A stretch of DNA of 64,000 nucleotides from Alphaproteobacteria bacterium (GTDB lineage Bacteria > Pseudomonadota > Alphaproteobacteria > CAAGCB01 > CAG-977), in contig JAFVAT010000032.1 of assembly GCA_017480385.1 (NCBI GenBank), positions 15,276-79,275 on the forward strand, read 5' to 3'. Of this stretch, positions 10,147 through 59,000 are shown in pieces. The position numbers and the translations under genes were made by a program. The notes beneath the pieces were generated by a model, which saw only the letters and a list, made by a program, of their open reading frames with translations, was not told the DNA's origin and did no database searches. How positions within the stretch are numbered: position 1 is the first letter of the stretch; every line of letters starts with the position of its first letter.

Positions 10147-12693
10147 ATGATTAAAGATAAAATATTAGAAATTTATGCCCCTGTTTCGGGAAAAACGCAG
10201 TCGATTGAAACTGTTCCGGATCAAGTCTTTGCGCAGAAAACGATCGGAGACGGCATTTCTATCGCGCCGTCTTCTTTTGTACTGTGCGCTCCATGCGACG
10301 GAACAATTGTTAATATTCATTCATCCAAACACGCTTTGACGCTGCAAACGCAGCAGGGCATCGATATTTTAATGCATGTGGGATTGGATACGGTTTTGCT
10401 GCGCGGCGCCGGATTTGATTTAAAAGTGGCCGTTGGACAAACGGTAAAAAAGGGAGACTGTTTAATCGCCTTTGATCATCATATCATTGAAAAGAATGGA
10501 AAAAGCCTGCTGACGGAAATTGTTGTCGCCAATATGGAGCAAACCGCGGGCATAACGGCAATGACCGACAAAGATGTTCAGGCGGGAAAGGATATTATTT
10601 TAACGGTTGCTTTGAAAAAAAACGCGCAGATTATTCCGATGCCTTCTGTCAAAGGAATGAAGGCGGAATCTTGGGAAATAGAGATTAAAAATCCGGCGGG
10701 CCTGCATGCGCGTCCTGCCGCCGTTTTGGTCAATGCGGCCAAACGGTTTGCCAGTCAGATCGCTTTAACGTGTGCCGGCAAAAGCGCTGATGCCAAAAGT
10801 CTGACCGCCATAATGGGGCTGGACATTAAAAACGGGGATCGGGTGCGCTTGACGGTGGAAGGCTATGATGCCTCAGAGGCTATGAAAAAGTTAATTCCCT
10901 TGATTGAAACGGGATTGGGCGAGGAATTGTCGGCGGCGCCTGTTGTTGTCGAAGAGCCAAAAGAGCTTCCGAAAGGAAAAGATCAGGAAAATCTTTTTTT
11001 TGGCATAGCGGCGTCTCCCGGCATGGCTGTCGGTGTGGCCGTTCGGCTGCAAGATGCGGCGATTGAAGTTGAAGAGTTTGGGGCATCTCCGTCAAAAGAA
11101 AGGGAAAAGTTAGCTTCAGCCTTGGCGGAAGCAGGAGATGAGCTGAATGATCTGTATGAAAAAACGTTAAAAAAAGCAGGGCCGGACAAAGCGGCTATTT
11201 TCTCTGCACATCAGGAATTGCTGGAGGATCCCGAATTAGTCAAAAAATCTCAGGAGCTGATTGACAATGGCCGCAGTGCTGCTTTTGCCTGGCAGCAGAC
11301 AATTAATAAGCAGGCGCAGCGTTTTGCCGAAATGAAAAATTCTTTATTGGCCGAACGGGCAGGGGATCTGCAGGACGTCGGCAAGCGGGTGCTGCGGCTG
11401 CTGACGGGGGAAGTCGAACAGAAGGTGTGCTTGCCGGAAAATGCGGTTGTTATTGCGTATGATTTAACGCCTTCGGATACGGCTTTGCTGGATCGTGACA
11501 AGGTTGTCGGATTTGCAACCGTCAGCGGTGGAGCTTCGTCCCATGCCGCTATTTTGGCCAGATCCATGATGCTGCCGGCTGTTTCCGGCTTATCGGAAAG
11601 CGTGTTGAAGATTTTGAACGGGACGCCCGTTTTGCTGAACGGAACGACAGGAGAACTGCATCTGAACCCCGATGAAAAAGAAAAGCAGTCGGCTGTCCGG
11701 CAAAAAGAAACCGAACGCAAAACGCAGGCGGAACTGTTTGAAACCCGAAACGAGCCGGCGGTAACGACGGACGGCGTGCGTTTGGAAATTGTCGGCAATA
11801 TCGGCAGCGCAGAAGAAGCGGGACGGGTAGCCGCGGCGGGCGGTGAAGGGATTGGACTGCTGCGGTCCGAGTTTTTGTTTTTAAACCGGCAGGAAGCGCC
11901 TTCAGAAGCCGAACAAACGGCGGTATACCGTGCGGTCGGAGAAGCCATGGGCCCAAACAGGCCGGTCATTGTCAGGACATTGGATATCGGCGGGGACAAG
12001 GAAGTGCCGTATATCAAAGAACCAAAAGAGGACAATCCCTTTTTGGGAGTGCGCGGGCTGCGGCTCAGTTTAAAGCATCAGGAGCTTTTCCGTTCTCAGA
12101 TCCGTGCCATTTTAAAAGCGGCGGACAAAACAAAAATCAGAATCATGTTTCCGATGATCACAATATTGGAAGAAGTAAAACTGGCGAAACAAATTGTTGA
12201 AGAGGAACGAAAAGCTCTGAATGCTCCGCCGGTCGAAACGGGAATTATGATTGAAGTTCCGGCGGCGGCAATGACAGCGGATATTTTAGCTCCTTATGTT
12301 GATTTTTTTTCAATCGGCACGAATGATTTAACGCAGTATACAATGGCGTGCGACCGCGGCAATCCGGCTTTGTCCTCATTATCGGACGGTTTGCACCCCG
12401 CTGTTTTGCGCATGATCAAGATGACGGTTGAAGGGGCGGAAAAGCACGGCAAATGGGTCGGTGTGTGCGGCGCTATGGCAGGGGATCAAAATGCTGTGCC
12501 CGTATTGATCGGTTTGGGGGTTAAGGAATTAAGCGTCGTATCGCCGTTGATTCCGGGCATTAAAGCGCAGATTCGTTCTTTATCCATGTCCCGGTGTCAG
12601 GATTTGGCCCGTTTGGCCGTCGGGCAGGAATCGATTCAGGACGTTTATCAAATTATCAAAAGTTTTTTAACAGATCAGCAGCGGGGAGAATAA
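10147..12693 (+). CDS. ptsI: PTS multiphosphoryl transfer protein: EIIA(Glc)-HPr-Enzyme I fusion
   Basis: N-terminal EIIA-Glc domain (HVGLDTV active-site His), HPr domain (GLHARPAA), then the full PEP-utilising Enzyme I; 848 aa. Confidence 0.85.
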
Positions 12694-12694
12694 A

Positions 12695-14479
12695 ATGACG
12701 ATAGGAAGAAAAGCGTTTATGTTTTTGCAGCAAATCGGAAAATCCCTGATGCTGCCGGTGGCCGTCCTGCCGGTGGCGGGGCTGCTCTTGGGAATAGGAT
12801 CGGGGCTTTTGAATGCGGAAATCAGCTGGATTCCGGCGGTTATTCCTCAGGTGATGAGCCAAAGCGGCAGTGTGATTTTTGACAATATGCCCCTGATCTT
12901 TGCGATCGGTACGACGCTGGGGTTGACGGATAACGACGGTGTGGCGGCTTTAGCGGCGGTGACGGGCTTTTTGGTGCTGCAGGCAACGATGGGAGTCATG
13001 GCGGACGTGCTGTGGTTTCATGTTTCCGCCGGTCAGGAAACGTTGGGCGTTTTGGCGCAGGCGCTGGAATATGATGTCGCTTTTGCCCGTCGGATTGTCG
13101 CGACAAATGCCGGTATAAAAACGATTCAGACGGGTGTTTTCGGCGGATTGTTCATCGGTGTGGTTGCCGCTTATGTTTACAAGCGGTTTTATCGGATTCA
13201 ATTGCCGCCGTACTTAGGTTTTTTCGCGGGCAAGCGTTCCGTGCCGATTATCACGTCTTTGGTGGCGATTGTTCTCGGTGTGTTTTTAAGCCTGTTCTGG
13301 CCGCCGATTCAGGAAAAGATCAACGAATTTTCGATGTGGGCGGCTTACAGCGCGCCGACGGTTGCCGGAGCAACGTACGGCTTTGTCGAACGTCTGCTGC
13401 TGCCGTTCGGGCTGCATCACATTTGGAATGTGCCGTTTTTCTTTGAAATCGGGTCTTATACGAACAAGCTGGGCGAAGTCGTTACCGGCGACATTCCCCG
13501 CTTTTTCGCCGGCGATAAGACAGCCGGCATTTTAGGCGGCGGTTTTCTGATTAAAATGTTCGGTCTGCCGGCGGCGGCTCTGGCCATTCTGCATACGTCC
13601 AGGCCGGAAAACAAGCTGAAAGTCAGCGGCATTATGGCGTCGGGCGCTTTGACGGCATTCCTGACGGGAATCACAGAACCGCTGGAATTTACTTTTCTGT
13701 TCGCTGCGCCGATGCTGTATTTCATTCATGCGGTCATGGTCGGTTCGGCCTTTGCCGTCATCAATCTGGTCGGAGCGCATATCGGCTATACTTTTTCGCA
13801 GGGAGCCATTGATTTTGCTTTGTTCTATCCTTTGGATACAAAACCTTGGGTTATCTTTATTTTAGGGCCGGTTTATGCTGTTCTGTATTACGTCGTGTTT
13901 CGATTCTGCATTTCGTTTTTCAACATGAAAACGCCGGGACGGGACGAAGAGTTGGCGGTCTCCGCCGTTCCGGCGGCCGGTTCGACGGATCATGATGAAA
14001 AAATGTCCATGGCGGCAAGGCTGGTAGAAGCGTTCGGCGGGCGGCAGAACATTAAAAATTTGGACGCCTGCATTACGCGGCTGCGGCTGATTTTGAATGA
14101 TCCGGACAAAGCGGACGATGCAAAGCTGAAAGCATTGGGCGCAACGGGCGTTATGCGCGTCGGTTCAGGTGTTCAGGCGGTTTTTGGAACGGCTTCCGAG
14201 AATTTAAAAACGGATATGGAGGAATATCTGCGTTCTTATCCGCAAGACTCTGATGTCGATTCCGAACCGGTTAAGACGTTTTCTTTGTCTGAAACCGTAA
14301 AAAGGGCTTTGGGCGGAGAAAACAATATTGAAAACAGCAGTCATTTGGCCGACGGCGGTTTGCATATCAGGCTGAAAGATCAGGCCTTGATAGATGAAAA
14401 AAAGCTGCGAGAAGCTGGTGTGGAGCTGATGTTTAAAATCGATAACGGGCTGATTTACTTGTCGCCCTTTATTCCGTAA
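12695..14479 (+). CDS. PTS glucose-family transporter EIICB with an extra degenerate C-terminal IIB-like domain
   Basis: Polytopic IIC domain, then IIB domain with the phosphorylatable Cys ([10 protein letters not shown]). The last ~90 aa repeat the IIB fold signature but lack the Cys ([13 protein letters not shown]). Confidence 0.8.
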
Positions 14480-20946: not shown

Positions 20947-21561
20947 ATGACAAATCAAAGCGTATGGAATAAAAACTGGGCGAATTGGAAAGAGGATTTC
21001 AAGCCTTCTCCGTTTGCCGAAAAAGCGTTTAAGCTGATGAAAATTAAGGACATGCACGACGTTTTGGATTTAGGATGCGGCAAAGGACGCAACAGCCTGT
21101 ATTTCGCGGCGAACGGCATGAACGTGACGGCAATGGATATTTCTGATGAGGCGCTGAAAACGGTAGAAAATCTGCGTCACCCGAAAATCAGGACGGTATG
21201 CGCGGATATTTCCAAAACGGATTTGGAACTGGAAAAATATGACGCGGTGTTTGCCTGCCTGTCTTTGCATTATTTCGGCGATGCGGTGACGCGCCTGATC
21301 ATCAATCGGGCGCACCGTTCTTTGCGGGGCGGAGGGCTGTTTTTTATCCGTTGCAAATCGGTCAAAGACAAGGCGTACGGCATCGGCGAAAAAGTCGGCG
21401 AAGATATGTATTTTGACGAATGGACTCGTCATTTTTTCCGTCCCGAATATATGACGGACGTCTTATCCGGCTTTGAAACGGCGGCTGTTTCGGAAACTGA
21501 AGAAGATTATTTCGGCGTCTGTCATTTTGTGGACGGCATTGCCGTCAAAGCGTCTTCTTAG
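20947..21561 (+). CDS. Class I SAM-dependent methyltransferase
   Basis: Motif [17 protein letters not shown], acidic motif II MDIS. Confidence 0.6.
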
Positions 21562-21597
21562 AATAAGACAAAAGCGTTTGTCAAAAAAGGCGATATC

Positions 21598-22362
21598 ATG
21601 AATTATCAGGACATTAACGCGAAAACAATTGATAAGTGGGTGACGGACGGCTGGGAATGGGGAAAGCCCGTTTCTCATGAAATCTGTTCAAAAGCGCGGC
21701 AGGGCGATTGGGCTGTTTGCCTGACGCCGATAAAGCCTGTTCCGCGTGAATGGCTGGGCGAAATCAAGCAAAAGAAAATTCTCGGATTGGCCTGCGGCGG
21801 CGGTCAGCAAATGCCTGTTTTTGCTGTTTTAGGCGCGGACTGTACCGTTTTGGATTATTCGGAAAAACAGTTGGAAAGCGAGCGTCTGGTCGCCGAAAGG
21901 GAAGGATATGATATTGATATTGTTCGCCATGACATGACAAAGCCTTTGCCTTTTGCCGATGAAAGTTTTGATTTGATTTTTCACCCTGTTTCCAACTGCT
22001 ATGTGCGGGACGTCTGTCCGATTTGGAAAGAGTGTTTTCGCGTTTTAAAACAGGGCGGCGTTCTGCTTTCAGGGCAGGACAACGGCATCAACTTTATCGT
22101 CAGCGATGAAGACGAAACGCACATTGTTAATCCTCTGCCGTTTAACCCGATGAACAATTCCGAACAAAAAGAACAGATGCTGAAGGAAGAAAACGGTATT
22201 CAGTTTTCTCATACGTTGGAAGAACAATTGGGCGGTCAGCTGGCGGCGGGACTGATCATCACGGATTTGTACGAAGATCTGAACGAAAGCGGCAGACTTA
22301 AAGAATTAAATGTTCCGACATATTGGGCGACCAGAGCCGTCAAAGGAAAAATCGTTTTTTAA
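21598..22362 (+). CDS. Class I SAM-dependent methyltransferase (second, divergent)
   Basis: Motif I ILGLACGGGQQ, VLDYSEKQ, FDLIF. Confidence 0.5.
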   Translation: MNYQDINAKTIDKWVTDGWEWGKPVSHEICSKARQGDWAVCLTPIKPVPREWLGEIKQKKILGLACGGGQQMPVFAVLGADCTVLDYSEKQLESERLVAEREGYDIDIVRHDMTKPLPFADESFDLIFHPVSNCYVRDVCPIWKECFRVLKQGGVLLSGQDNGINFIVSDEDETHIVNPLPFNPMNNSEQKEQMLKEENGIQFSHTLEEQLGGQLAAGLIITDLYEDLNESGRLKELNVPTYWATRAVKGKIVF

Positions 22363-22392
22363 AATGTCTGAACGGATATGACGCACAGTTGC

Positions 22393-22423
22393 TTGACTTT
22401 TTAAAAAAGAATCCTTATAGAAT
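22393..22423 (+). promoter_or_regulatory. Sigma70-like promoter driving the riboswitch leader
   Basis: TTGACT (22393-98), TAGAAT (22418-23) with a 19-nt spacer; alternatively TATAGA with a 17-nt spacer. Confidence 0.45.
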
Positions 22424-22432
22424 CAAAAACGG

Positions 22433-22495
22433 CTCATATAATTCCTCTGGTGCCGGAGGAAGTTTCTACTGAACAGGACCGTGTTCTGCTATGAG
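22433..22495 (+). promoter_or_regulatory. Purine riboswitch aptamer, guanine/xanthine-type (C at the specificity position)
   Basis: P1 CUCAUA/UAUGAG, J1/2 UAAU, P2 UCCUC/GAGGA with a GG-containing loop, exact J2/3 AGUUUCUAC, P3 with a CC-containing loop, and C immediately 5' of the P1 3' strand (C74 equivalent). Confidence 0.7.
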
Positions 22496-22501
22496 TGCTT
22501 G

Positions 22502-22537
22502 AAGCTCCGTTTGACGCGGTGTTTTAAGCTTTTTTTA
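22502..22537 (+). terminator. Candidate expression-platform terminator hairpin plus U-tract
   Basis: aagcu-ccg...cgg...agcuu followed by 7 T. The hairpin has an asymmetric internal loop, so this is only moderately convincing. Confidence 0.35.
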
Positions 22538-22562
22538 TGCCTCGAAGAAAGGAAAAAAGAGT

Positions 22563-23828
22563 ATGACCGTTCAGATCATTAAAGGACATATCGTTGATGC
22601 ACCCGCTTTCGGGAAATTGGCAATTACGGAAAACGGTTTTCTGATTCTGGAAAACGGCAGAATCGAAGGCGTTTTCGCCGAATTGCCGGAAACGTACCGC
22701 AATGCGCCGGTGACGGATTATGCGGATAAATTGATTTTGCCGTCTTTCGCCGATCTGCATATGCACGCGCCGCAATATGCGATGTTGGGCACGGGAATGG
22801 ATTTGCCTTTGCTGGATTGGCTGAACACGTATACGTTTAAAACGGAGGCCGCGTTCAAAGATACCGCTTACGCCCGTGAAGTCTACCGCGCTTTGGCCAA
22901 AGAAATGATCGATAACGGCACAACGCGTGTCTGCGCTTTTTCGTCTTTGCACCGTGAATCCACGATGATTTTAATGGAAGAATTTGAAAAGGCGGGTATG
23001 ACCGGCTATGTCGGCAAAGTCAATATGGACCGCAACTCCGGCGATGTTTTAACGGAAACAACTGAAGAATCCATGCGTGAAACAACAGCGTGGCTGGACG
23101 AAGCTTCGGATCAATTCGAGCATATCAAGCCGGTGCTGACGCCACGTTTCACACCGACTTGTTCAAACGAATTAATGGCGTTTCTGGGCAAACTAGCCGA
23201 GGAAAGAAACCTGCCCGTGCAGTCTCATTTATCCGAAAACACTTCCGAAATCGCTTGGGTCAGAGAGCTTCACCCCGATTGCGCGCAATATTGGGAAAGC
23301 TATAAAAAGTACGGCCTATTCAATGAACGCACTGTTATGGCGCACTGCGTCCATTCCGACGAACGCGAAAGAACAGCGATGCGGGAAAACGGCGTCTGGG
23401 TCGCGCATTGCCCTGATTCTAATATTAATCTGGTCAGCGGCGTGGCGCCCGTGCGCAAAATGGTCAACGAGGGCGTGCGCGTGACATTAGGATCGGATAT
23501 TGCGGGCGGGGCTTTGCTGGCGATGCCGCAGGTTGTAACTTCGGCTATCCGCGCGTCCAAAATGAAGCGGATCCAGACAGATTGGACGGACGACTTTTTA
23601 ACGGTGGCGGAAGCGTTTTATCTGGGCACGACAGCGGGCGCGAAATTCTTCGGTACAAACGGCGGGTTCGCGAAGGGTGACACACTGCACGCCATCGTCG
23701 TTGACGATTCGGCGTTCCCGACATCGGCCCAAAAGCTGTCGGTGACGGAACGCTTTGAACGGGCAATTTATCTGATGACGAAACGCGATATTGCAGCCGT
23801 TTACAGCGACGGGCGGAAAGTCAAATAG
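22563..23828 (+). CDS. guaD: Guanine deaminase (amidohydrolase superfamily)
   Basis: HxH metal motif (DLHMHAPQ); length and pattern match the guanine deaminase / cytosine-deaminase-like family. The riboswitch upstream supports a purine substrate. Confidence 0.6.
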   Translation: MTVQIIKGHIVDAPAFGKLAITENGFLILENGRIEGVFAELPETYRNAPVTDYADKLILPSFADLHMHAPQYAMLGTGMDLPLLDWLNTYTFKTEAAFKDTAYAREVYRALAKEMIDNGTTRVCAFSSLHRESTMILMEEFEKAGMTGYVGKVNMDRNSGDVLTETTEESMRETTAWLDEASDQFEHIKPVLTPRFTPTCSNELMAFLGKLAEERNLPVQSHLSENTSEIAWVRELHPDCAQYWESYKKYGLFNERTVMAHCVHSDERERTAMRENGVWVAHCPDSNINLVSGVAPVRKMVNEGVRVTLGSDIAGGALLAMPQVVTSAIRASKMKRIQTDWTDDFLTVAEAFYLGTTAGAKFFGTNGGFAKGDTLHAIVVDDSAFPTSAQKLSVTERFERAIYLMTKRDIAAVYSDGRKVK

Positions 23829-24554
23829 CACAGGGCTTTCTTTGTCCAGCGTTTAAGACGCTTCTTCATTTTGAATTTAAAATTCCGGATTCGGTCGGAC
23901 AGCGTTTGCCTGAGCCGGTAATCGCTGACGATCGTTCTTAACTTCCGGACGTCATAAGGTGGGACGCCATCCGGTTTACTAAAGTCGAACGCAATCTTTG
24001 TGATATGACCGCCGATCCTTTTTTCTTCAAAATGATCCGCACAGGAAATGCACAGAAGATCCATGGTTTTATCGGGAAAACGGGCGGTGATTTTATGATG
24101 ACATTCCTGCAGAATCTCTTCGGAAATGTTTTCTTTTAATAGACCGGGGGGGGGGGGGTATCGTATAAACGATCAGGATATTCCGACCGCTTTCGATCAT
24201 GTCAAGCAAGCGGCTGATTCTCCTGTCATATTTGGCTTTGACAGCGGGATAAGAAGCATCTAAATCGGCCCCCGCCGGAAAATCATGCGGAAACTTCATT
24301 TCCGTTCTTTTATTTTCGCAGATTTCGCAGGGGTTGTTTTCATCGCCGTTCTGTCCGCCGGTGAAAACAATATCCTCTTTATTGAAGTAATCTTTAAAAC
24401 CGGACACAAGCAGATCAACACGGGAAGCAAAATCGCCGCCGGCAACCCAATCCAGCGGATAGGAGCAAAACTGCAGATTTTTCTTGCGCAGCATCTGTGA
24501 ACACAGGCAGGCGGCGCCCAGACTGAAAATAAGGTCGTATTTTTTGACGGGCAT
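23801..24554 (-). pseudogene. Phase-variable gene, currently frameshifted: ORF 24554-24093 (153 aa) and ORF 24064-23801 (87 aa) form one ~250-aa ORF if the G/C tract has 12 or 15 units
   Basis: Manual codon walk: the downstream frame is open with no stop from the tract through to 23801, and a -1 change in the tract fuses both ORFs. The N-terminus MPVKKYDLIFSLGAAC has an S-L-G-x-x-C start resembling DUF1796-type putative cysteine peptidases (tentative). Confidence 0.7.
24146..24158. repeat. Homopolymeric G13 tract (poly-C on the coding minus strand)
   Basis: 13 consecutive G read directly. It encodes PPPP in the minus-strand ORF and is the junction between two ORFs in different frames. Confidence 0.95.
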
Positions 24555-24566
24555 GAAAAAATCCTT

Positions 24567-25727
24567 TTAAAAAGAAACGCTGACGCAGGCCTGAGCGGCA
24601 ATGCCTTCTTTGCGCCCCGTGAAGCCCAGCTGTTCCGTCGTCGTCGCTTTGATGCTGATACGGGAAGCGGAAATATTCAGGATATCCGCTAATTTTTCAC
24701 ACATCGCCAAACGATGCGCGCCGATCTTCGGACGTTCGCAGATCAGCGTGATATCCGCATTTAAAATTTTGCCGCCCAAACCGTTGACCAAAGAAACGGC
24801 GTGTTTCAAAAATAAAACGGAATCCGTCCCTTTCCAACGCATATCGGACGGCGGGAAATGCAGGCCGATATCGCCCGATCCGATCGCGCCCAGCAAAGCG
24901 TCCGTTAAAGCATGCAGGCCGACATCAGCATCGGAATGCCCTTCAAGTCCTTTGTCATGCGGGACTTGAACGCCGCACAGCGTGACAAAAGAGCCTTCGC
25001 AGAATTTGTGCACGTCAAATCCGGTCGCCGTGCGGATATCCGTGCCTTTGCCTTTTAAAAGCAATTCGGCGCGGGCCAAGTCCTCCTGCGTCGTGATTTT
25101 AAAGTTGTCTTCGCTGCCTTTGGTCAGAACGACCGTCATGCCGGCTTGTTCCGCAACACAGGCATCGTCGGTTAGTTCTTGTCCTTTGACGGCTTCATGC
25201 GCGGCAAGGATTTCCTGATACGGGAAGCCCTGCGGCGTCTGCACGCGCCACAATCCGGCTCTGTCCACCGTGTGCGTGATGACGGTTTTGCCTTCCGCTG
25301 CTGTTCCGGCTTTGATTGTGTCCGTTACGGGCAGGGCGGGAATGGCGCCCTGATGTTCCCTGATTTCCGCAATCACGCGGTTAATTACGCCGAAATCGAC
25401 GAATGGCCGAGCGCCATCATGAATCAGGACAAAATCAGGATTTTCTTCTTTCAAACTTGCCAAGCCCAGACGGACGGAATCCTGTCGGGTCGGACCTCCG
25501 AGCACAGGCGGCAGGATGGGCAGACCTTGCGCCGCGCATTGGTACAGCGCCGTGTCGTCAGGGTGAATGACGGCGCGGACACAGTGAATTGACGGGTGGG
25601 CGCAAAAAACGGCCAGCGATTTTCTTAAAACCGCCTGTCCGCCGATCATTCTGTATTGTTTGGGCATTTCCCCGCCGAAGCGGTGGCCTCTGCCTGCGGC
25701 GACAACGATAACAGCCCCCTTGACCAT
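24567..25727 (-). CDS. ispDF: Bifunctional IspD/IspF (2-C-methyl-D-erythritol 4-phosphate cytidylyltransferase / MEcPP synthase)
   Basis: N-terminal IspD (VAAGRGHRFG). C-terminal IspF with GFDVHKF and HSDADVGLHALTDALLGA metal-binding motifs. Confidence 0.9.
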   Translation of the reverse strand: MVKGAVIVVAAGRGHRFGGEMPKQYRMIGGQAVLRKSLAVFCAHPSIHCVRAVIHPDDTALYQCAAQGLPILPPVLGGPTRQDSVRLGLASLKEENPDFVLIHDGARPFVDFGVINRVIAEIREHQGAIPALPVTDTIKAGTAAEGKTVITHTVDRAGLWRVQTPQGFPYQEILAAHEAVKGQELTDDACVAEQAGMTVVLTKGSEDNFKITTQEDLARAELLLKGKGTDIRTATGFDVHKFCEGSFVTLCGVQVPHDKGLEGHSDADVGLHALTDALLGAIGSGDIGLHFPPSDMRWKGTDSVLFLKHAVSLVNGLGGKILNADITLICERPKIGAHRLAMCEKLADILNISASRISIKATTTEQLGFTGRKEGIAAQACVSVSF

Positions 25728-25776
25728 GGATTGTTCCTCCTGTTAAATTTCTTGAAAACACAGAGTAAAACAGATT

Positions 25777-26769
25777 TTGAATTTAGAAAAGCAGAAGATG
25801 ACTTTCGCGCCGTTAAAAATAGGAAATTTGAGTGTTTTCCCCGTCGTCGGGGCGCCAATGGCCGGCGTGACGGACGCGCCGTTCCGCAGGATCATTCGCC
25901 GGTTCGGCCAGGAGTTGCTGTGGACGGAAATGGTCTTGGCCGCTTCTTTGGTTCATGCGCATAAGCAAACGCGGAAAATGGCGTTGTGCGAAAAAACGGA
26001 CGAACCGATTGTCGTTCAGCTGGAAGGAACGGCGTCGGACATTATGGCTGAGGCGGCGCAGATCATCGAAGAAACAGGACGGGCACAGCTCATCGATATC
26101 AATATGGGCTGTCCCGTGCCTAAAATCGTCAAAGCCGGCGGCGGCGCAGCTTTGATGAACGATCCCGAACGGGCGGAAAAAATCGTGAAGGCCGTTGTTG
26201 CCGCCGTTAAACTGCCGGTTACGGTCAAATTTCGCCTGGGCTGGGACGAAGAACATTTAACGTATTTGGATTTTGGCCGAAGAATGCAGGACGCAGGGGC
26301 GGTGGCGGTGACTCTGCATGCCAGAACGCGGGCGCAGCTTTATTCGGGCAAGGCGGAGTGGAGTGCGGCGGCACGGCTTAAACGCACGTTGCATATTCCC
26401 GTGATCGCGAACGGGGATATCCGCACGCCCGAACAGGCGGCACGGTGCCTGAACGAAACGGGAGCCGATGCTGCAGCGATCGGGCGGGGACTGTTGGGAA
26501 GGCCATGGGTTTTGGCGGAAATATCGGCTTTTCTAAACAGCGGGAAAATGCCCGAACCGCCGGATTTGTGCGCTTTGGTGCTTGATCATTTTGAAGAAAT
26601 GGAAAAATATTATGGGTATAAGGCGGTTTTTATCGCGCGCAAGCATATTGCGTGGTATTCTTTAGGCTTAGCGAACAGCGCGGATTTTCGCCGCCGGGTT
26701 AATGAAACGGACGATGTGGCGGCAATGCGGGCTTTAATCAGGGATTTTTTCGGCGGGGAAAATGGTTAG
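25777..26769 (+). CDS. dusB: tRNA-dihydrouridine synthase B
   Basis: TIM-barrel Dus motifs (APMAGVTD, NMGCP); followed by fis as in the classic dusB-fis operon. Confidence 0.85.
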   Translation: MNLEKQKMTFAPLKIGNLSVFPVVGAPMAGVTDAPFRRIIRRFGQELLWTEMVLAASLVHAHKQTRKMALCEKTDEPIVVQLEGTASDIMAEAAQIIEETGRAQLIDINMGCPVPKIVKAGGGAALMNDPERAEKIVKAVVAAVKLPVTVKFRLGWDEEHLTYLDFGRRMQDAGAVAVTLHARTRAQLYSGKAEWSAAARLKRTLHIPVIANGDIRTPEQAARCLNETGADAAAIGRGLLGRPWVLAEISAFLNSGKMPEPPDLCALVLDHFEEMEKYYGYKAVFIARKHIAWYSLGLANSADFRRRVNETDDVAAMRALIRDFFGGENG

Positions 26770-27067
26770 TCAGAATGAAGGCTTGGGCGCAGTGGTGGAA
26801 AAGTATCTGCGCCGGTTTTATAAAGATACGGCGGAAGCAGTCGGATACGCGAATGTGTATGACGCCGTGATTGACGAAGTCGAGCGCCGCCTGATTTCCG
26901 TGACTTTGGAAGTTGCGCAGGGCAACCGTTTGAAAACGGCAAAAATTCTGGGGCTGAACCGGAACACACTTTTAAAAAAGATGCGGCGGCTGAATCTGGA
27001 CGATAAACTGATCGAAAAAAACAAGGCGGAGGTTTCTCCTCTGTACAGAAGGCGGAAAAGAAAATGA
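26762..27067 (+). CDS. fis: DNA-binding protein Fis
   Basis: ~100-aa protein with C-terminal HTH (GNRLKTAKILGLNRNTLLKKMRRLNL), immediately downstream of dusB. Confidence 0.8.
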   Translation: MVSQNEGLGAVVEKYLRRFYKDTAEAVGYANVYDAVIDEVERRLISVTLEVAQGNRLKTAKILGLNRNTLLKKMRRLNLDDKLIEKNKAEVSPLYRRRKRK

Positions 27068-28437
27068 GAGTGGTTGTATGCGGCGCGGGACGGGTCGGAT
27101 CAACGATCGCGCGATATCTGGCCGAAGACGGCAACGATGTTGTCTTGATTGATACGAATGAGGAACTTTTAACGGAGCTGACCTCGACAATGGAAGTTCG
27201 TCCTGTGGTCGGATTTGCCTCTTATCCGTCCGTTTTGGAACAGGCAGCCGCTCAGGACGCGGATATGCTGATTGCGGTGACGGCTTCCGATGAGGTCAAT
27301 ATGGTGACGTGTCAGGCGGCGAATTCGTTGTTTAAAGTCCCGATGAAAATTGCGCGTCTGCGCTCAAACGAATACACGAATCAAAAATGGCGCAAGTTTT
27401 ATACACATGACGCATTGCCGATCGATTACGTCATTTCTCCGGAAGTCGAAATTGCACGGTCAATCCGGCGCAATATTTCTTTCCCCGGCGCGTTTGAAGT
27501 CATTCCGCTGGCCATGGATAAGGTCTATTTGTTGGGAATCCACTGTGATGAAGTCTGCCCGATGATTAACACCCCTTTGCGCCAGCTGACAGAGCTGTTT
27601 CCCGATATTAATGCGGTTGTGGCTGCTTTGGTGCGCGATTCCAAACTGATCATCACGGACAGCAATACGCGCATTTCAGCCGGCGATGACGTGTATGTGA
27701 TCGTGCCGTCCGAATCCGTGCGCCGGATATTGACTTTGTTTGGCCGTGATCAGGAACGTGCGCAGAATATTTTAATTCTGGGCGGCAACAATATCGGGCT
27801 GTATTTGGCCAGATATTTGGAAAAAGCGTCCCATATGCGTGTGACTTTGATTGAAGAAAACGAGGAACGCGCTAAGTTTTTGGCGGAAACACTTTCCGAA
27901 ACAACAATCATTCACGGGGATTTCCTGAATACCGTTTTATTGGAAGAAGCCGATATTGATATTGTTGAAACGGTGATTGCCGTCAGTTCAAAAGATGAAA
28001 ATAATATTCTGGCGTCCTTAATGGCAAAGAAATACGGTGTTGATCAGACTGTGTCCGTGATTGAAAAGCCGTTATATTCTCAGCTGGTCGTGAATTTGGG
28101 CATTGATGTGATTGTTGATCCGAAAGACATCATGGTCTCATCGATTTTGCAGCATGTCCGCCGCGGGAAAATCTACGCCGCGTATTCGATCCGTTCGGGA
28201 TTGTGCGAAGTTTTGGAGGCCGATGCTTTTGATACGTTTGAGTATACGGGCAAAGCGCTGCGCGATGTGCGTCTGCCCGCCGGCGTGATTATCGGCGCAA
28301 TCGTTCGTGACGGTGAGCCGCTGCCTTTGCGCGGCGATACGGTCATAGAATCCGGCGACCGGCTGGTTTTGTTTGCCGATGCGGACGCCGTTAAGCAGGT
28401 TGAAAAAATGTTTTCTGTCGGACTGGAGTTTTTCTGA
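27064..28437 (+). CDS. trkA: Trk potassium uptake protein TrkA
   Basis: Two tandem NAD-binding RCK halves (VVCGAGRVGSTIA..., ILGGNNIGLYLA...); 457 aa. Confidence 0.85.
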   Translation: MRVVVCGAGRVGSTIARYLAEDGNDVVLIDTNEELLTELTSTMEVRPVVGFASYPSVLEQAAAQDADMLIAVTASDEVNMVTCQAANSLFKVPMKIARLRSNEYTNQKWRKFYTHDALPIDYVISPEVEIARSIRRNISFPGAFEVIPLAMDKVYLLGIHCDEVCPMINTPLRQLTELFPDINAVVAALVRDSKLIITDSNTRISAGDDVYVIVPSESVRRILTLFGRDQERAQNILILGGNNIGLYLARYLEKASHMRVTLIEENEERAKFLAETLSETTIIHGDFLNTVLLEEADIDIVETVIAVSSKDENNILASLMAKKYGVDQTVSVIEKPLYSQLVVNLGIDVIVDPKDIMVSSILQHVRRGKIYAAYSIRSGLCEVLEADAFDTFEYTGKALRDVRLPAGVIIGAIVRDGEPLPLRGDTVIESGDRLVLFADADAVKQVEKMFSVGLEFF

Positions 28438-54477: not shown

Positions 54478-56016
54478 GTGAAAAGATATTTGAAAATCCG
54501 CCTTTTTGCAGTTGTTTTAAGTTTGTGTTGTCTGATTGTTCCGCAGGCGTCGGCACAACAGTCTGCTGCCCGTGAATCTATGGACGCGGCTATTGAACAG
54601 TCAAACGGACAATATTCTGAAATAGATATGCCTTTGTGGTCTGTTGGCATGCAGCAAAAAGCTTGGAATAAGCCAATGGAACATTTAGGAGAAGGGCAGT
54701 CTAAACCGGGATATTCCAGATATTACTGGACACCGGATCTGGTTTTGCCTCTGCGTATCCGCGAAGGCATGCATACGTTGGTTAATTTTCCGTCTTGGGA
54801 ATTGATTGAAAATATTTTTATGGGAAATGAAAGTGCCTTCGGCGCTCAAAAGGTAGCTCCGAATGCTTTGATGGTTTTTGCGGCGAATGCCGATTTGGTC
54901 GGCATGGATACGAACATGATTGTTTTTGGCAGATCCGGAAACAGATATGTTTTTTACCTCAGAAGCGAAACTTTTAATACGGACAGAATTACAAACTCGG
55001 TTGTAGATATTATTGTTAATGATGTTAAATTTGTTCCCGATGATTCCGGATTAACGCCAACGGCTTCCGGCGCGATTGTTCCCGGCGGAGGGATTGGCGC
55101 TGCGTTGGGGACAACCGGCGGCGGTTTGCGCGGCGGTAAAAAAACAACCAAAAACGCAACGGAAGATTGGTTGGCCGATTTAGAAGTGGATCCTGAAAAA
55201 ATACGGTTTGATATAGATGTTTTTGTGCCTAATCCAGCGGATATAGAAATTGCGCCGGAACGTGTGTGGCGCGATGAAATCTTCACTTATATTGATTTTG
55301 GCCCGAAAGCTTTGACTATGATAGAGCGACCTATTGTTAACCTGCTTTCTCAAGGATCCGAAGTGCCGATTGGTTTCAGAACACGCGGGCCGAATAGCAG
55401 ATTAATGGTTGTTGAAGGCATTGGTGATTTGGTTTTGCGTAACGGCAAACGTATTTTATGTTTAAAGATCAGAAAAGATCCCTCTTTCGGGACGGAATGG
55501 GTGGAATATGAAGCCTCCGTTCAGCCGCAATGGTCTCCCGGTCCGATGATTACGACGGGCGGATATAACGGCGGCGCTGCACAATCCGGAACGATGGGCG
55601 CTTCGAGTGTCGGTAATGTTCCGAATAATAACGGCATGATGATCTCTATGGGACCAAACGGAACGATGAGCGCCAATCAAATCGCACAGTTTTCTGCGCA
55701 AAGGCAGAGCGGTCAAAATTACGGACGTACGGCACAATCGTACCGCGGAAATTCAGAAGGCGGCTTTGCTATTGAGCTGGGAGCTGACGGGAATATTGTA
55801 ACATTAGAGCAAAAATGGGATGGCATCGCCCGCAAAAATAAAGATTTGCTGGGCGGATATGAACCGTACTATTCGGTAGACGCTGTTGCGGAGGGAGAAT
55901 CAAAAGATATGTTCCGTTTGCGGATCGGTCCTGTTGACAGTATCGAAGCAGGGGACAGGTTATGTAATCAATTAGGTCGCCGCGGGGTGACGTGTATGGT
56001 TGTGCGGACACAATGA
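54478..56016 (+). CDS. VirB9/CagX/TrbG-like outer-membrane-complex protein fused to a C-terminal SPOR peptidoglycan-binding domain
   Basis: GTG start with RBS. Signal peptide. VirB9 C-domain signature DEIFTYIDFGPKALTMIERPIVNLL...LMVVEGIGDLVLRNGKRILCLK. Gly-rich linker. Terminal ~80 aa FAIELGADGN...MFRLRIGPVDSIEAGDRLCNQLGRRGVTCMVV match the SPOR beta-alpha-beta-beta-alpha-beta pattern. Confidence 0.6.
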   Translation: MKRYLKIRLFAVVLSLCCLIVPQASAQQSAARESMDAAIEQSNGQYSEIDMPLWSVGMQQKAWNKPMEHLGEGQSKPGYSRYYWTPDLVLPLRIREGMHTLVNFPSWELIENIFMGNESAFGAQKVAPNALMVFAANADLVGMDTNMIVFGRSGNRYVFYLRSETFNTDRITNSVVDIIVNDVKFVPDDSGLTPTASGAIVPGGGIGAALGTTGGGLRGGKKTTKNATEDWLADLEVDPEKIRFDIDVFVPNPADIEIAPERVWRDEIFTYIDFGPKALTMIERPIVNLLSQGSEVPIGFRTRGPNSRLMVVEGIGDLVLRNGKRILCLKIRKDPSFGTEWVEYEASVQPQWSPGPMITTGGYNGGAAQSGTMGASSVGNVPNNNGMMISMGPNGTMSANQIAQFSAQRQSGQNYGRTAQSYRGNSEGGFAIELGADGNIVTLEQKWDGIARKNKDLLGGYEPYYSVDAVAEGESKDMFRLRIGPVDSIEAGDRLCNQLGRRGVTCMVVRTQ

Positions 56017-59000
56017 ACGAAGAATTACTCAGCTCATCAGACAGATATTTGAAAAAATCCAACAAAATGCTGTTGGTTGTCGGGATTGTTGCATTACTGG
56101 CTTTCCTGATCGGTATTGTTATTTTGTTGAGCGGGGAAGAAGAGCAGAAAAAAGATGCGGAAGTGACTATTGATGGTTCTGCGGACAGTTCGACTAATAT
56201 TACCGGCGGCAATGCGGATACGTTTAATCTTGCTCAGGATATAGATGCAACGACAACATCGACGGTCAGGTTGGTTGTTTCCCCGGAAACTCTGCGTTTT
56301 GATCAGGTCGTTTTGGGAACGGAAGCCGAAGGGACGTTGACGCTGTCCGCTTCTTCCGGTCGGATCAGGATCACCTCCGTTGAATTTGAAAATAAACAGG
56401 AAGAAAGTTTTATTCTGGAAAACAAATGCCGCAAAGATATTGTCCTGACCGGCGATGTGACATGCAACGTTGTTGTTCGCTGGGAACCGAAGACGGCACG
56501 GACGATACAGTCCAATTTAGCTGTTCGGTGGAGTGATGAAACTTTTGGCGGTATTGGTCGGAAAGTGATCGTTCCTATTTCAGCTATGGCAATTGATACC
56601 AGTATGTGCGGCGTGTGTGACGAAGCGCCGGGCGGTGGCGGATCGATGCTTGAGCAGTTGCGTAAAAAAGGACGCGTTGTCTTGGGGCCTGACGGAAAAC
56701 CGATCGGGTACGCCGATGAAAACGGTGTTGTCTATGGTTTGGACGGCAAAAGAATCGGCACGCTGCGTGATGATGGCACTGTTGTCGATGATCAGGGATA
56801 TGTAATTGGTGTTGTTGAAGGGTCAAGGCTGGCAATCGGACCGAATGGAGAAATTTTAGGAACGATTTTGCCCGACGGTCGTGTTATAGATAAGGACGGT
56901 CGGTTAATAGGATATGCTTTGCCTGACGGAACGATCGTAGACCTGAACGGCAATGTGATTGGTTCGGCTGTTAAAACGGGATTAGCATATGACAAATACG
57001 GCAATGTGATCGGTCGCATCATGCCTGACGGGACGGTCGTTGACGAGAATGGAAATATCATCGGATATGTTAACCCGGATGGCACGATTGTTGATATCAA
57101 CGGTAATATTATCGGTTCTGTTGCTCCTCAGGGAACGGTTGTTGATGCTTCAGGAAAACCCTTAGGTATCGTAATGCCTGATGGGACTGTCGTTGATGCG
57201 GACGGGAATATTATTGGGCGTGTTTTACCGAATGGGTTGGTTGTTGATAAAGACGGGAATATTATAGGGCGCGTTGTTAAGGAAGGCTTGGCAATCGGGC
57301 CTGCCTGCAAAATGGTTGGTCGAATCAGTACAGACGGATCGGTGATGTCCGGCAATCGTCAAGTCGGGCGTTTGACGGCTTCCATGGTTGTGGTTGATAT
57401 GTCGGGAAACCCAATTGCCGGTTATGTTGAAGAAGGCGCTTTAATCGACTGGAAAGGCAAAATTATTGGTAAAGTAGACACAGATGGTCAGCCTGTTTCT
57501 TTTAAGGGTGAACCTTTAGGGTGTTTGACGCCGTACGGAACGGTCGTAAATGATTCTGAAGAAATTACGGCATCTGTTTTGCCAAAGGGAACGGTTGTCG
57601 GAAATCAGGCTGAACTTATTGGACGAGTTATGCCGGACGGGTCTGTTGTTGGTAATGGCCAGATGAAAGGACGTATTTTGCCGGACAAGACGTTCTTATC
57701 AGAAGACGGCAATGTTTCAGGGGCTATTGCGCGGCAAAATGTCGGTGTCGGTCCGGGGTGCGTGGCCTTAGGATATGCGAATGTTGACGGCCAAATCATT
57801 ACGGCCAAAGGAGAATTTGCCGGTTATTTAGCGGCAAACGGCGATATTCTTGATGATAAGAAAGTCGTCTTGGGGAAAATTATGGATTCCTCGGTTGTTC
57901 TGAATAATCAGGGCCGTATAGCCGGTATTATGGATGCAAACGGCAAAGTACAAGATAAAAACGGGAAAATTTTGGGCTGTATGGACCCGTCGGGATTGGC
58001 CTTGAATTCTAAAAATGAAGCTGTCGGCATGCAAATGCCTGAGGGTGGTGTTCTGGACCGTGATGGGCGCACAATCGGTTGGGTCATGCCGGACGGCACT
58101 GTTTCGAATACCAGAGGTTCTTCCATCGGTCGGGCTGTACCAGACGGCACTGTCATTGATTTAGGTGGGCAAACAGTAGCCCGGCTGGCTCCTTATAACG
58201 GATTTGCCCTAAGAAATGCCTGTACGGTTGTCGGTAATATTTTGATAGACGGTCGTGTTGTCGATAAAGATTTCAACAGAAAAGCCTATATCCAAATGAA
58301 CGATTCGCTGGTTGATGATAAAGGGGCTTTCTTAGGGCGTGTTGCCTTTGCTTCCCGTGCGATCAGCGCTAAAGACGTTTATTTGGGAATAACGGCAAAA
58401 GATGGCTCACTGTATGATTCTTCGGGCAAAAAGATAGGTTGTCTGCGTCCGGATTCTTTGTTCATTGATGATAAGAACAGGTTTTTGGGAGCGGCATTGC
58501 CTGAAGGAATTGCGGTTAACAATAAAACTAACCTTTATGCCAGAGGGGATTCAATCGCAAAGGCGATGAATTTAAAAGGAAATTCTTTTATCGGAACTAT
58601 TACTCTCAGTGGCTTTGTCAAAGAAAAAGATACGATTTCCGGCGGTATTATCCCTCGGAAGGCGGATGTTTTAGATATTAAAACCAGCAAAACAATAGGT
58701 CGTTTGCTGCCGGACGGTTCTGCGATAGATTTGTCCAGCCGTTACATGGGGCGTTTAAAAATGCCCGGCGGAGAAATTGTTGATAAAAGCGATAAAGTCG
58801 TTGGTAAAATTTTTGTCGGCATGAGGCAGGTCATTGGACCGAACGGAGAAATTTTAGGTGTTGTCATGCCGGACGGTTCTGTTGTGGATGCGTCTGGTCG
58901 TGTGATCGGAAAAGCAAATTTAGACGGTCAGGTTGTTGATGAAAACGGTCGTGTCATCGGTGAGGTTATCCCCGTAGGGCAGCCGATTTTAGGGCTGGAT

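What the first reader, a model, noticed from the sequence alone, without database searches (positions are those of the whole stretch)
24146..24158. G13 homopolymeric tract acting as a frameshift switch in a gene between guaD and ispDF (phase variation, currently OFF)
The tract encodes PPPP on the minus strand. With 13 G the reading frame ends 16 codons later (153-aa product). With 12 or 15 G the frame runs open to 23801, giving a ~250-aa protein that joins the two annotated ORFs. I checked codon by codon that no stop intervenes. Homopolymeric G/C tracts of this length in coding sequence are the classic slipped-strand-mispairing switch of surface-structure and host-adaptation genes in Neisseria, Haemophilus and Campylobacter. 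The N-terminal S-L-G-x-x-C motif hints at a DUF1796-like putative cysteine peptidase, a family often found in LOS/capsule loci, but that assignment is weak.
Basis: seen in the sequence. Interest (0 to 1): 0.7.

Follow-up and report, generated by a model that had tools for sequence, protein, structure and literature searches.

The report
Poly-G on/off switch in DUF1796 gene
A run of 13 G's inside a conserved gene of an uncultured rumen bacterium breaks its reading frame here, but other assemblies of the same strain carry 14 or 15 G's (15 restores the gene), so it is a textbook slippage-driven on/off switch, found here in a new organism and gene family.

Summary
The G13 tract at 24146-24158 is real and far beyond chance: no other G/C run in the 64 kb exceeds 6. 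It lies at codons 133-136 (PPPP) of a minus-strand DUF1796 gene (Pfam E=2e-16, with the match spanning the tract). 13 G gives a 153-aa truncation; 12 or 15 G gives 250/251 aa. Other assemblies of the same strain, with 6.4 kb of identical flanks, carry 15 (the exact predicted ON protein), 14, 13, or an interrupted 10-nt tract. A second species from human-gut samples, about 54% identical and in a different clade, carries a tract in the same loop. Its alleles imply 9, 11, 12, 13, 15, 16, 17 and 20 C, recurring on several haplotypes and mostly in frame. Close relatives of both species lack the tract, so it probably arose twice. The region after the tract is under purifying selection. The mechanism is classical, so this is a new member of a known kind. 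Distant DUF1796 homologs sit in polysaccharide-synthesis clusters; the predicted fold is not recognisably papain-like. Main caveat: all length data are short-read assembly consensus, not read counts.

The parts
24146..24158 (-). Homopolymeric tract, G13 on the + strand and C13 in the gene sense. It encodes PPPP plus one extra base and is the hypermutable switch element.
   Evidence: It is the only G/C run longer than 6 in the 64 kb. Length varies (15, 14, 13, interrupted 10) between assemblies with identical flanks.
23801..24554 (-). The complete DUF1796 gene as it reads when the tract is in frame: 250 aa with 12 C, 251 aa with 15 C. In this window (13 C) it is split by the frameshift.
   Evidence: Reconstruction. 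Pfam PF08795 E=2.2e-16 over residues 9-160. The exact 251-aa product exists as P0072 in another assembly. AlphaFold2 model has pLDDT 93.6.
24093..24554 (-). The OFF-state ORF actually encoded here: 153 aa, made of 136 native residues and a 17-residue out-of-frame tail. It equals database protein P0010 (accession MBR1778570.1).
   Evidence: L005 is base-for-base identical to window 21093-27554.
23801..24145 (-). Post-tract coding region, residues 137-250 of the ON form. It is out of frame here but intact (no stop codons) and under purifying selection. It contains the 87-aa ORF at 23801-24064.
   Evidence: dN/dS is 0.16-0.23 against tract-free homologs, compared with 0.24 for intact versus intact.
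24562..24566 (-). Shine-Dalgarno-like AAGGA, 7 nt upstream of the ATG at 24554.
   Evidence: Read directly from the sequence. No sigma-70-like promoter was found on the minus strand between ispDF and the gene.
24567..25727 (-). ispDF (bifunctional IspD/IspF), immediately upstream on the same strand with a 12-nt gap. It is the probable operon partner. The arrangement is conserved in every W/S2-clade locus whose upstream gene was characterised.
   Evidence: NCBIfam NF006899 at 477.6 bits against a cutoff of 417. Synteny seen; a 386-aa ORF occupies the same position in L001.
22563..23828 (+). Convergent amidohydrolase gene (best match guanine deaminase). Its 3' end overlaps the ON-frame 3' end of the DUF1796 gene by 28 nt.
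   Evidence: An ORF of similar size (424 aa) overlaps the gene's 3' end by the same 28 nt in L001.

Best explanation
This is a translational phase-variation (contingency) locus. A long C run in the gene sense (G13 on the + strand) lies in a surface loop of a DUF1796 protein.

Inferred mechanism: slipped-strand mispairing during replication adds or removes C's. Tract lengths that are multiples of three (9, 12, 15) give the full 249-251-aa protein. Any other length truncates it after residue 136 or so, removing about 45% of the fold. The window carries an OFF allele (13).

Shown here: the frame arithmetic; the existence of natural ON and OFF alleles on identical backgrounds in this species and in a second one; the loop position of the tract; purifying selection on the post-tract half.

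Inferred from established knowledge of poly-G/C tracts in Campylobacter, Helicobacter, Neisseria and Bordetella: switching is frequent, stochastic and reversible within a lineage.

Inferred with lower confidence: the protein modifies a surface glycan, possibly on a lipid-linked intermediate at the inner face of the membrane, so switching would vary the cell surface seen by phages or the host.
For: 1. Tract and frames.

2. Same strain, different lengths. L005 (identical to the window) has C13, L006 has C15 and encodes the exact predicted 251-aa ON protein, L007 has C14, and L009 has CCCACCCCCC. The flanks are 100% identical over 3396 nt upstream and 1737-3053 nt downstream.

3. A second species (S2) from samples with human-gut-style record names is 54% identical at the protein level and has a tract in the same loop. 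Its protein alleles imply C9, C12 and C15 (ON) and C11, C13, C16, C17 and C20 (OFF). Several lengths recur on the same N-terminal haplotype, for example haplotype 5 with C15, C16 and C20, and haplotype 7 with C9 and C12. Many alleles are seen on 2-14 contigs.

4. In-frame lengths are enriched among the members listed: 38 of 49 contigs and 10 of 16 distinct alleles, against 1/3 expected (p=3e-10 and p=0.016). That points to a functional gene with a minority switched off.

5. The two tracts probably arose independently. W and S2 fall in different clades, and each has tract-free close relatives (S2 against P0012, 86% identical). The S2 tract lies in a lineage-specific insertion of about 25 nt. 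P0009 shows an interrupted proto-tract, CCCCCCTCCC.

6. The tract falls in the least confident stretch of the model (block 131-140, pLDDT 76), a gap-rich loop between strand 125-131 and helix 145-158.

7. Post-tract dN/dS is 0.16-0.23.

8. The tract exceeds the poly-G/C cutoff of 7 or more used for calling phase-variable genes. Variation of the tract between isolates is accepted there as evidence of phase variation (PMC6321876).

9. Glycan role: the distant homologs P0031 and P0046 are embedded, with overlapping start and stop codons, between DegT aminotransferase and GT2 genes in clusters containing GT1, GT8, FdtA, RgpF and GLF.
Against: All tract lengths are consensus calls from short-read metagenome assemblies. 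The ruminant data come from Illumina NovaSeq with PCR-free libraries (PMC8199421), and long G runs are error-prone on that kind of platform.

Signs of trouble at the tract: three contigs end at or just before the tract position (L008, L011, P0081), and odd substitutions occur in or beside it (L009, L010, and the PPSPP and PPPSPPPPP alleles).

No read-level mixture within one sample was shown, and no switching rate or phenotype was measured. In the window's own species only one of four complete alleles is ON.

Confidence: 0.75

Rival explanations
1. Sequencing or assembly noise. The tract is real, but its true length is the same in-frame value (for example 15) in all cells. The 13, 14, 16 and 17 calls would be miscalls of a long G run, so the gene is simply constitutively expressed.
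For: The data are short-read Illumina, with NovaSeq for the ruminant samples. Contigs break at the tract in L008, L011 and P0081. There are anomalous bases within or beside the tract in L009 and L010. Most OFF calls lie within 1-2 nt of a common ON length.
Against: Some differences are 3-5 nt on the same haplotype (C9 against C12; C15 against C20). OFF alleles are reproduced on 2-3 independent contigs each. The ruminant libraries were PCR-free, which removes the main source of stutter. Even at a uniform length, a tract of 12-15 C is well above the lengths shown experimentally to switch in other bacteria (PMC6321876).
Confidence: 0.12
2. The DNA frameshift is bypassed during expression. RNA-polymerase slippage on the C13 template, or +1 ribosomal slippage on CCC-C at a stalling polyproline run, would restore the frame in a fraction of products. 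Out-of-frame alleles would then be leaky rather than OFF, and expression level rather than an on/off state would be what varies.
For: No tool result bears on this directly. It follows from established knowledge: transcriptional slippage on long homopolymers, +1 shifting of tRNA-Pro on CCC-N, and ribosome stalling at consecutive prolines. It would explain why OFF-length alleles persist with an intact downstream frame.
Against: It does not explain the enrichment of in-frame lengths in S2. That enrichment implies out-of-frame alleles carry a cost. It is complementary to DNA-level switching, not exclusive of it.
Confidence: 0.08
3. An ordinary pseudogene. The frameshift is a fixed inactivating mutation and the gene is decaying.
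For: The window allele is out of frame. Three of the four complete alleles in this species are out of frame.
Against: An in-frame allele exists on an identical background (P0072/L006). There are no stop codons in the 114 downstream codons. Post-tract dN/dS of 0.16-0.23 is the same as for intact homologs. The only differences between assemblies are in the tract itself. The same architecture in a second species is mostly in frame.
Confidence: 0.05

Closest known systems
Poly-G/C translational contingency genes of Campylobacter jejuni and other Campylobacter (capsule, LOS and flagellar-glycan modification genes; the PhasomeIt 'phasome')
   Same: An intragenic G/C homopolymer well above the cutoff of 7. 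ON is the longest of the three frames. Tract length varies between otherwise identical isolates. The likely target is surface-glycan modification (PMC6321876).
   Different: The host is an uncultured gut/rumen alphaproteobacterium known only from MAGs. The gene family (DUF1796) is not mentioned in any phase-variation paper in the searched library. The gene sits next to ispDF, not in a glycan locus. Only one tract was seen in 64 kb, whereas Campylobacter has tens per genome (my knowledge). No switching rate was measured.
Helicobacter pylori futA/futB fucosyltransferases and Helicobacter canadensis homopolymer-associated genes
   Same: Long poly-C tracts inside glycan-related coding sequences cause frameshift ON/OFF switching (my knowledge for futA/futB; PMC2823697 appeared in the results for H. 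canadensis but I did not read it).
   Different: There is no sequence or family relationship. The tract here is mid-gene (codon 133 of 250), in a loop of a single-domain protein, and it encodes a tolerated polyproline insert of 3-5 residues.
Neisseria lgtA/lgtC/lgtG poly-G LOS glycosyltransferase switches
   Same: A poly-G tract in the ORF, reading-frame control, and strain-to-strain length polymorphism (my knowledge; the Neisseria phasome papers PMC5953494 and PMC5084427 appeared in the results).
   Different: A different protein family and organism. Here there is evidence that the tract arose independently in two species in the same loop.
Pfam DUF1796 (PF08795, 'putative papain-like cysteine peptidase')
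   Same: A clear member by sequence, at 60.6 bits against a cutoff of 23. The family-conserved G13, C16, C18, H90, D91 and F92 are present.

Membership tests
SSR-mediated translational phase-variable (contingency) gene | A simple-sequence repeat of hypermutable length (poly-G/C of 7-8 or more) inside the reading frame | tested here: met
   G13 at 24146-24158, codons 133-136. The cutoff is from PMC6321876.
SSR-mediated translational phase-variable (contingency) gene | Changing the repeat number switches between a full-length and a truncated product | tested here: met
   12 and 15 give 250 and 251 aa. 11, 13 and 14 give 138, 153 and 139 aa. The full-length form matches the family length and its Pfam domain.
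SSR-mediated translational phase-variable (contingency) gene | Tract length differs between closely related genomes while the flanks are the same | tested here: met
   C15, C14, C13 and an interrupted 10-nt tract with 100% identical flanks. In S2, lengths of 9-20 recur on shared haplotypes. Caveat: these are assembly consensus calls, not reads.
SSR-mediated translational phase-variable (contingency) gene | High-frequency, reversible switching within a clonal population | not testable with these tools
   This needs raw reads, fragment sizing or culture. The organism is known only as a MAG.
SSR-mediated translational phase-variable (contingency) gene | A phenotype that differs between ON and OFF cells | not testable with these tools
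   The function of DUF1796 is unknown. Only context evidence for a glycan role is available.
Pfam DUF1796 (PF08795) | Whole-protein score above the curated gathering threshold | tested here: met
   60.6 bits against 23, E=2.2e-16, residues 9-160. All close homologs carry PF08795.
Papain-like cysteine peptidase fold | Structural similarity to papain-fold proteins | tested here: not met
SGNH/GDSL esterase or acyltransferase superfamily | Significant fold match and the four conserved sequence blocks (Ser, Gly, Asn, His) | tested here: inconclusive
Fixed-frameshift pseudogene | The same inactivating lesion in related genomes and relaxed constraint downstream | tested here: not met
   An ON allele exists on an identical background. 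Downstream dN/dS is 0.16-0.23.

The most novel reading that the evidence does not exclude
Two uncultured gut alphaproteobacteria, one from ruminants and one apparently from humans, independently evolved a long poly-C tract in the same surface loop of a conserved DUF1796 protein encoded next to ispDF. That would make it a convergently selected contingency locus in commensals known only from metagenomes. If so, DUF1796 is a switchable surface-glycan modifier under fluctuating selection from phage or host immunity. Its ON/OFF state could then be read directly from public metagenomes across hosts, giving a functional handle on an uncharacterised family and on the in-vivo ecology of an uncultured lineage.
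Probability: 0.45. Interest if true: 0.6.

Novelty: new member of a known kind. Interest (0 to 1): 0.45.

Why it matters
Slippage-driven phase variation has been mapped mostly in cultured pathogens such as Campylobacter, Helicobacter, Neisseria, Haemophilus and Bordetella. This case is in an uncultured gut and rumen alphaproteobacterial lineage, in a gene family of unknown function. The tract appears to have arisen twice in the same loop, and ON and OFF alleles are both visible in public assemblies.

There are three consequences:

- The '153-aa hypothetical protein' in the deposited MAG is an annotation artefact of an OFF allele.
- DUF1796 should be suspected of acting on the cell surface. Its 'papain-like peptidase' label is doubtful.
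- The ON/OFF ratio at this locus could be measured in existing metagenomes to ask what selects for switching.

The mechanism itself is not new.

Tried and rejected
- A scan of the JGI metagenome collection using the unique flanks of the tract gave 0 matches, so no extra alleles came from there.
- NCBIfam, PADLOC and PHROGs gave no hit for the ON protein. It is not a named family, a known defence protein or a phage protein.
- A profile search of PDB sequences found nothing meaningful, with a best E of 0.49.
- Foldseek against the PDB found nothing at E below 0.02. The afdb50 library was unavailable.
- Other short homologs (P0122, P0124, P0070, P0030, P0023, P0024) were checked as possible further frameshifted tracts. 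The three I read in full are plain fragments and the rest lie on contigs under 800 bp; none ends at a proline run.
- My first formula for converting S2 proline counts to tract length overcounted ON alleles by 3. I corrected it from the explicit reconstructions: ON = 3n, OFF(a) = 3n+1, OFF(b) = 3n+2.
- Chance origin of the tract is rejected (expected about 6e-6). A two-colour 'dark-cycle' poly-G read-end artefact is rejected because the tract is embedded in frame between matching flanks in at least five assemblies and recurs in a second species.
- Rfam found no RNA family anywhere in the window.

Full report
**Observation**

Positions 24146-24158 of the window are thirteen consecutive G's. G/C runs in the window number 888, 169, 23 and 3 for lengths 3 to 6. 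There are none at 7-12, and then this single run of 13. Extrapolating the roughly 6.7-fold decay per added base predicts about 6e-6 runs of 13 or more in 64 kb. CCC makes up only 21% of proline codons in the window's long ORFs, so four consecutive CCC codons are not a codon-usage accident.

On the minus strand the tract is codons 133-136 (PPPP) of an ORF starting at 24554.

| Tract length | Product |
|---|---|
| 11 | 138 aa |
| 12 | 250 aa, open to 23801 |
| 13 (this window) | 153 aa, 17 out-of-frame codons after PPPP |
| 14 | 139 aa |
| 15 | 251 aa, open to 23801 |

**The gene**

The reconstructed protein matches Pfam DUF1796 (PF08795) at E=2.2e-16, 60.6 bits against a cutoff of 23. The match covers residues 9-160, so it crosses the tract. 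NCBIfam has no model for it. About 70 homologs were found, nearly all 231-290 aa and aligning over both halves of the joined ORF.

The 153-aa product is in the databases as P0010 (accession MBR1778570.1, 'MAG: hypothetical protein IJ752_08335 [Alphaproteobacteria bacterium]'). Locus L005, from an assembly of sample SAMN15829995, is base-for-base identical to window 21093-27554. Record names and related loci (RGIG isolates from water buffalo and sheep rumen) point to the ruminant gastrointestinal MAG study PMC8199421. That study reports many uncultured Alphaproteobacteria, including reduced RF32 genomes. Whether this MAG belongs to RF32 was not tested.

**Neighbourhood**

- The gene follows ispDF (NCBIfam equivalog, above cutoff) on the same strand after a 12-nt gap.
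- It has an AAGGA Shine-Dalgarno-like sequence 7 nt before its ATG, and no promoter-like site in between. I infer that it is co-transcribed with ispDF.
- Its ON-frame 3' end overlaps a convergent amidohydrolase gene by 28 nt. That gene's best match is guanine deaminase, just below the equivalog cutoff.
- The arrangement of ispDF followed by DUF1796 was seen in every related locus of this clade whose upstream gene was characterised, with or without the tract.
- The rest of the window is housekeeping plus a type IV secretion segment, with no glycan locus.

**Tract-length variation in the window's species (W)**

An exact-sequence look-up of my predicted products found two of them in the collection:

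- the 251-aa ON protein expected for 15 C (P0072);
- the 139-aa product expected for 14 C (P0073).

The cluster also holds a 152-aa and a 138-aa variant. The DNA shows the following.

| Locus | Tract | Note |
|---|---|---|
| L005 | C13 | identical to the window |
| L006 | C15 | ON |
| L007 | C14 | OFF |
| L009 | CCCACCCCCC | interrupted, 10 nt |
| L008 | contig runs into the tract | C6, then unrelated sequence; contig ends 29 nt later |

The 3396 nt upstream and the 1737-3053 nt downstream are 100% identical among L005, L006, L007 and L009. The tract is therefore the only thing that differs.

**A second species (S2)**

P0027 is a homolog from samples whose record names suggest a human-gut cohort. 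It ends just after PPPP at the same alignment column. Its DNA has C13 (L004) or C11 (L010) at the homologous codon, and a third contig breaks about 20 nt before the tract position (L011). Reconstruction shows ON at 9, 12, 15 and 18 C.

The exact C12 ON protein exists (P0079), in a 78-member cluster. The listed members imply these tract lengths (with the conversion corrected).

| State | Length (contigs) |
|---|---|
| ON | C9 (2), C12 (4), C15 (31) |
| ON, interrupted | PPSPP (2), PPPSPPPPP (1) |
| OFF | C11 (1), C13 (1), C16 (5), C17 (2), C20 (2) |

Several lengths occur on the same N-terminal haplotype:

- haplotype 1: C11, C12, C13;
- haplotype 4: C15, C17, and the interrupted PPPSPPPPP form;
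- haplotype 5: C15, C16, C20, and the interrupted PPSPP form;
- haplotype 7: C9, C12.

That means recurrent change, not one inherited lesion. In-frame lengths account for 38 of 49 contigs and 10 of 16 distinct alleles, against 1/3 expected (p=3e-10 and p=0.016). This is a sample of 18 of the 81 members of the two clusters, and contigs are not independent, so the figures are indicative only.

**Origin of the tract**

In a neighbour-joining tree, W and S2 fall in different clades, and each has tract-free close relatives.

- W against P0001-P0008: 64-71% identical. The loop reads PPK, PPS and so on, encoded by CCG CCG or CCT CCC TCC.
- S2 against P0012: 86% identical. The loop reads VPSGNSEN. The S2 tract lies within an insertion of about 25 nt relative to P0012.
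- P0009 carries an interrupted CCCCCCTCCC.

The parsimonious reading is two independent expansions at a conserved Pro/Pro-Pro loop. That argues for selection for switchability, or at least for a mutational hotspot that is tolerated there.

**Is the gene alive?**

- The 114 post-tract codons contain no stop in the ON frame.
- Their dN/dS against the tract-free homologs L001 and L002 is 0.23 and 0.16. That is the same range as the intact pair L001 against L002 (0.24).
- An ON allele exists on an identical background.

A plain pseudogene is therefore rejected.

**Structure and function**

An AlphaFold2 model built from 65 sequences has pLDDT 93.6 and pTM 0.89. Its least confident internal stretch (block 131-140, pLDDT 76) holds the tract residues, in a loop between strand 125-131 and helix 145-158. 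The alignment is gap-rich there. Truncation at the tract removes five strands and three helices, including a long basic C-terminal helix (218-245). From its sequence I infer that this helix associates with the membrane.

Context gives a lead. Two distant homologs (33-38% identical) lie inside polysaccharide-biosynthesis clusters, with start and stop codons overlapping a DegT aminotransferase upstream and a GT2 downstream. Those clusters also contain GT1, GT8, FdtA, RgpF, UDP-galactopyranose mutase and an acetyltransferase. I therefore favour a surface-glycan modification role, with modest confidence. The protein is not in the PADLOC or PHROGs libraries.

**Mechanism**

Shown here:

- frame control by tract length;
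- natural ON and OFF alleles on identical backgrounds in two species;
- the loop location of the tract;
- selective constraint on the post-tract half.

Inferred from established knowledge: slipped-strand mispairing changes the length of a 13-nt G/C tract at high frequency and reversibly. Tracts of 7-8 or more are the accepted threshold, and between-isolate variation is accepted as evidence of phase variation (PMC6321876). The window carries an OFF allele.

**Caveats and rivals**

Every length here is an assembler's consensus from short reads. The ruminant data are NovaSeq with PCR-free libraries. Three contigs end at or just before the tract position, and there are odd substitutions in or next to it (L009, L010, PPSPP, PPPSPPPPP). 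Both are what one expects from either true heterogeneity or poor base-calling.

Differences of 3-5 nt on one haplotype, the reproduction of OFF alleles on several contigs, and the in-frame bias all argue that much of the variation is real. Only read-level counts can settle it.

Transcriptional slippage, or +1 ribosomal slippage at the CCC-C/polyproline site, could make OFF alleles leaky. This was not testable.

**Comparison and novelty**

The element works like the poly-G/C contingency genes of Campylobacter, Helicobacter and Neisseria. It meets every defining feature that could be tested in silico; switching rate and phenotype could not be tested.

What is new:

- the host, an uncultured gut/rumen Alphaproteobacteria lineage;
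- the gene family. The only paper in the searched library that mentions DUF1796 has a title and abstract unrelated to phase variation (I did not open it), and no paper links homopolymeric-tract phase variation with MAGs;
- the apparent convergent origin in two species.

It is a new member of a known kind, of moderate interest.

Noticed in passing
window 55992-63059 (+), with 54478-56016 (+): A 2355-aa ORF combines a C-terminal TrbI/VirB10 domain with about 10 'beta-flower' repeats (PF21785, E=5e-127) and RHS repeats. It sits directly after a CagX/VirB9-like gene. This would be an unusually large VirB10-type protein in a type IV secretion segment.
   Followed up: no
L015 9735-10184 (-) and L016 9672-10154 (-): In both distant DUF1796-containing glycan clusters, a small gene with an Mtd_N domain lies just downstream on the opposite strand. 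Mtd_N is the N-terminal domain of the major tropism determinant, the target of diversity-generating retroelements.
   Followed up: no
L009 3397-3406; proteins P0090 and P0093: Interrupted tracts: CCCACCCCCC in one W assembly, and PPSPP and PPPSPPPPP in in-frame S2 alleles. They could be stabilised 'locked' alleles, or base-calling errors inside the homopolymer.
   Followed up: partly
L008 (contig end about 29 nt past the tract start), L011 (sequence diverges about 20 nt before the tract position, contig ends soon after), P0081 (NCBI partial protein ending at ...FTEVP): Three independent contigs of 23-49 kb terminate at or next to the tract. The tract is evidently a recurrent assembly breakpoint in metagenomes.
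   Followed up: partly
L004 6391-6395 against L010 3391-3395: The five bases immediately 5' of the S2 tract differ (GAAGT against GTATT), while the preceding 3380 nt differ at only one position. This is either a local polymorphism or a post-homopolymer sequencing artefact.
   Followed up: no
window 1-64000: No Rfam family reached its gathering score anywhere in the 64 kb, so there is no tRNA, riboswitch or other annotated RNA in this stretch.
   Followed up: no
window 10147-12693 (+): A single 848-aa ORF fuses PTS EIIA, HPr and Enzyme I domains. An EIIC-EIIB gene follows at 12695-14479.
   Followed up: no
window 20947-21561 and 21598-22362 (+): Two adjacent SAM-methyltransferase genes both give weak hits to the MduS selenoprotein methyltransferase model. 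The S2 locus (L004) has only one methyltransferase at this position.
   Followed up: no
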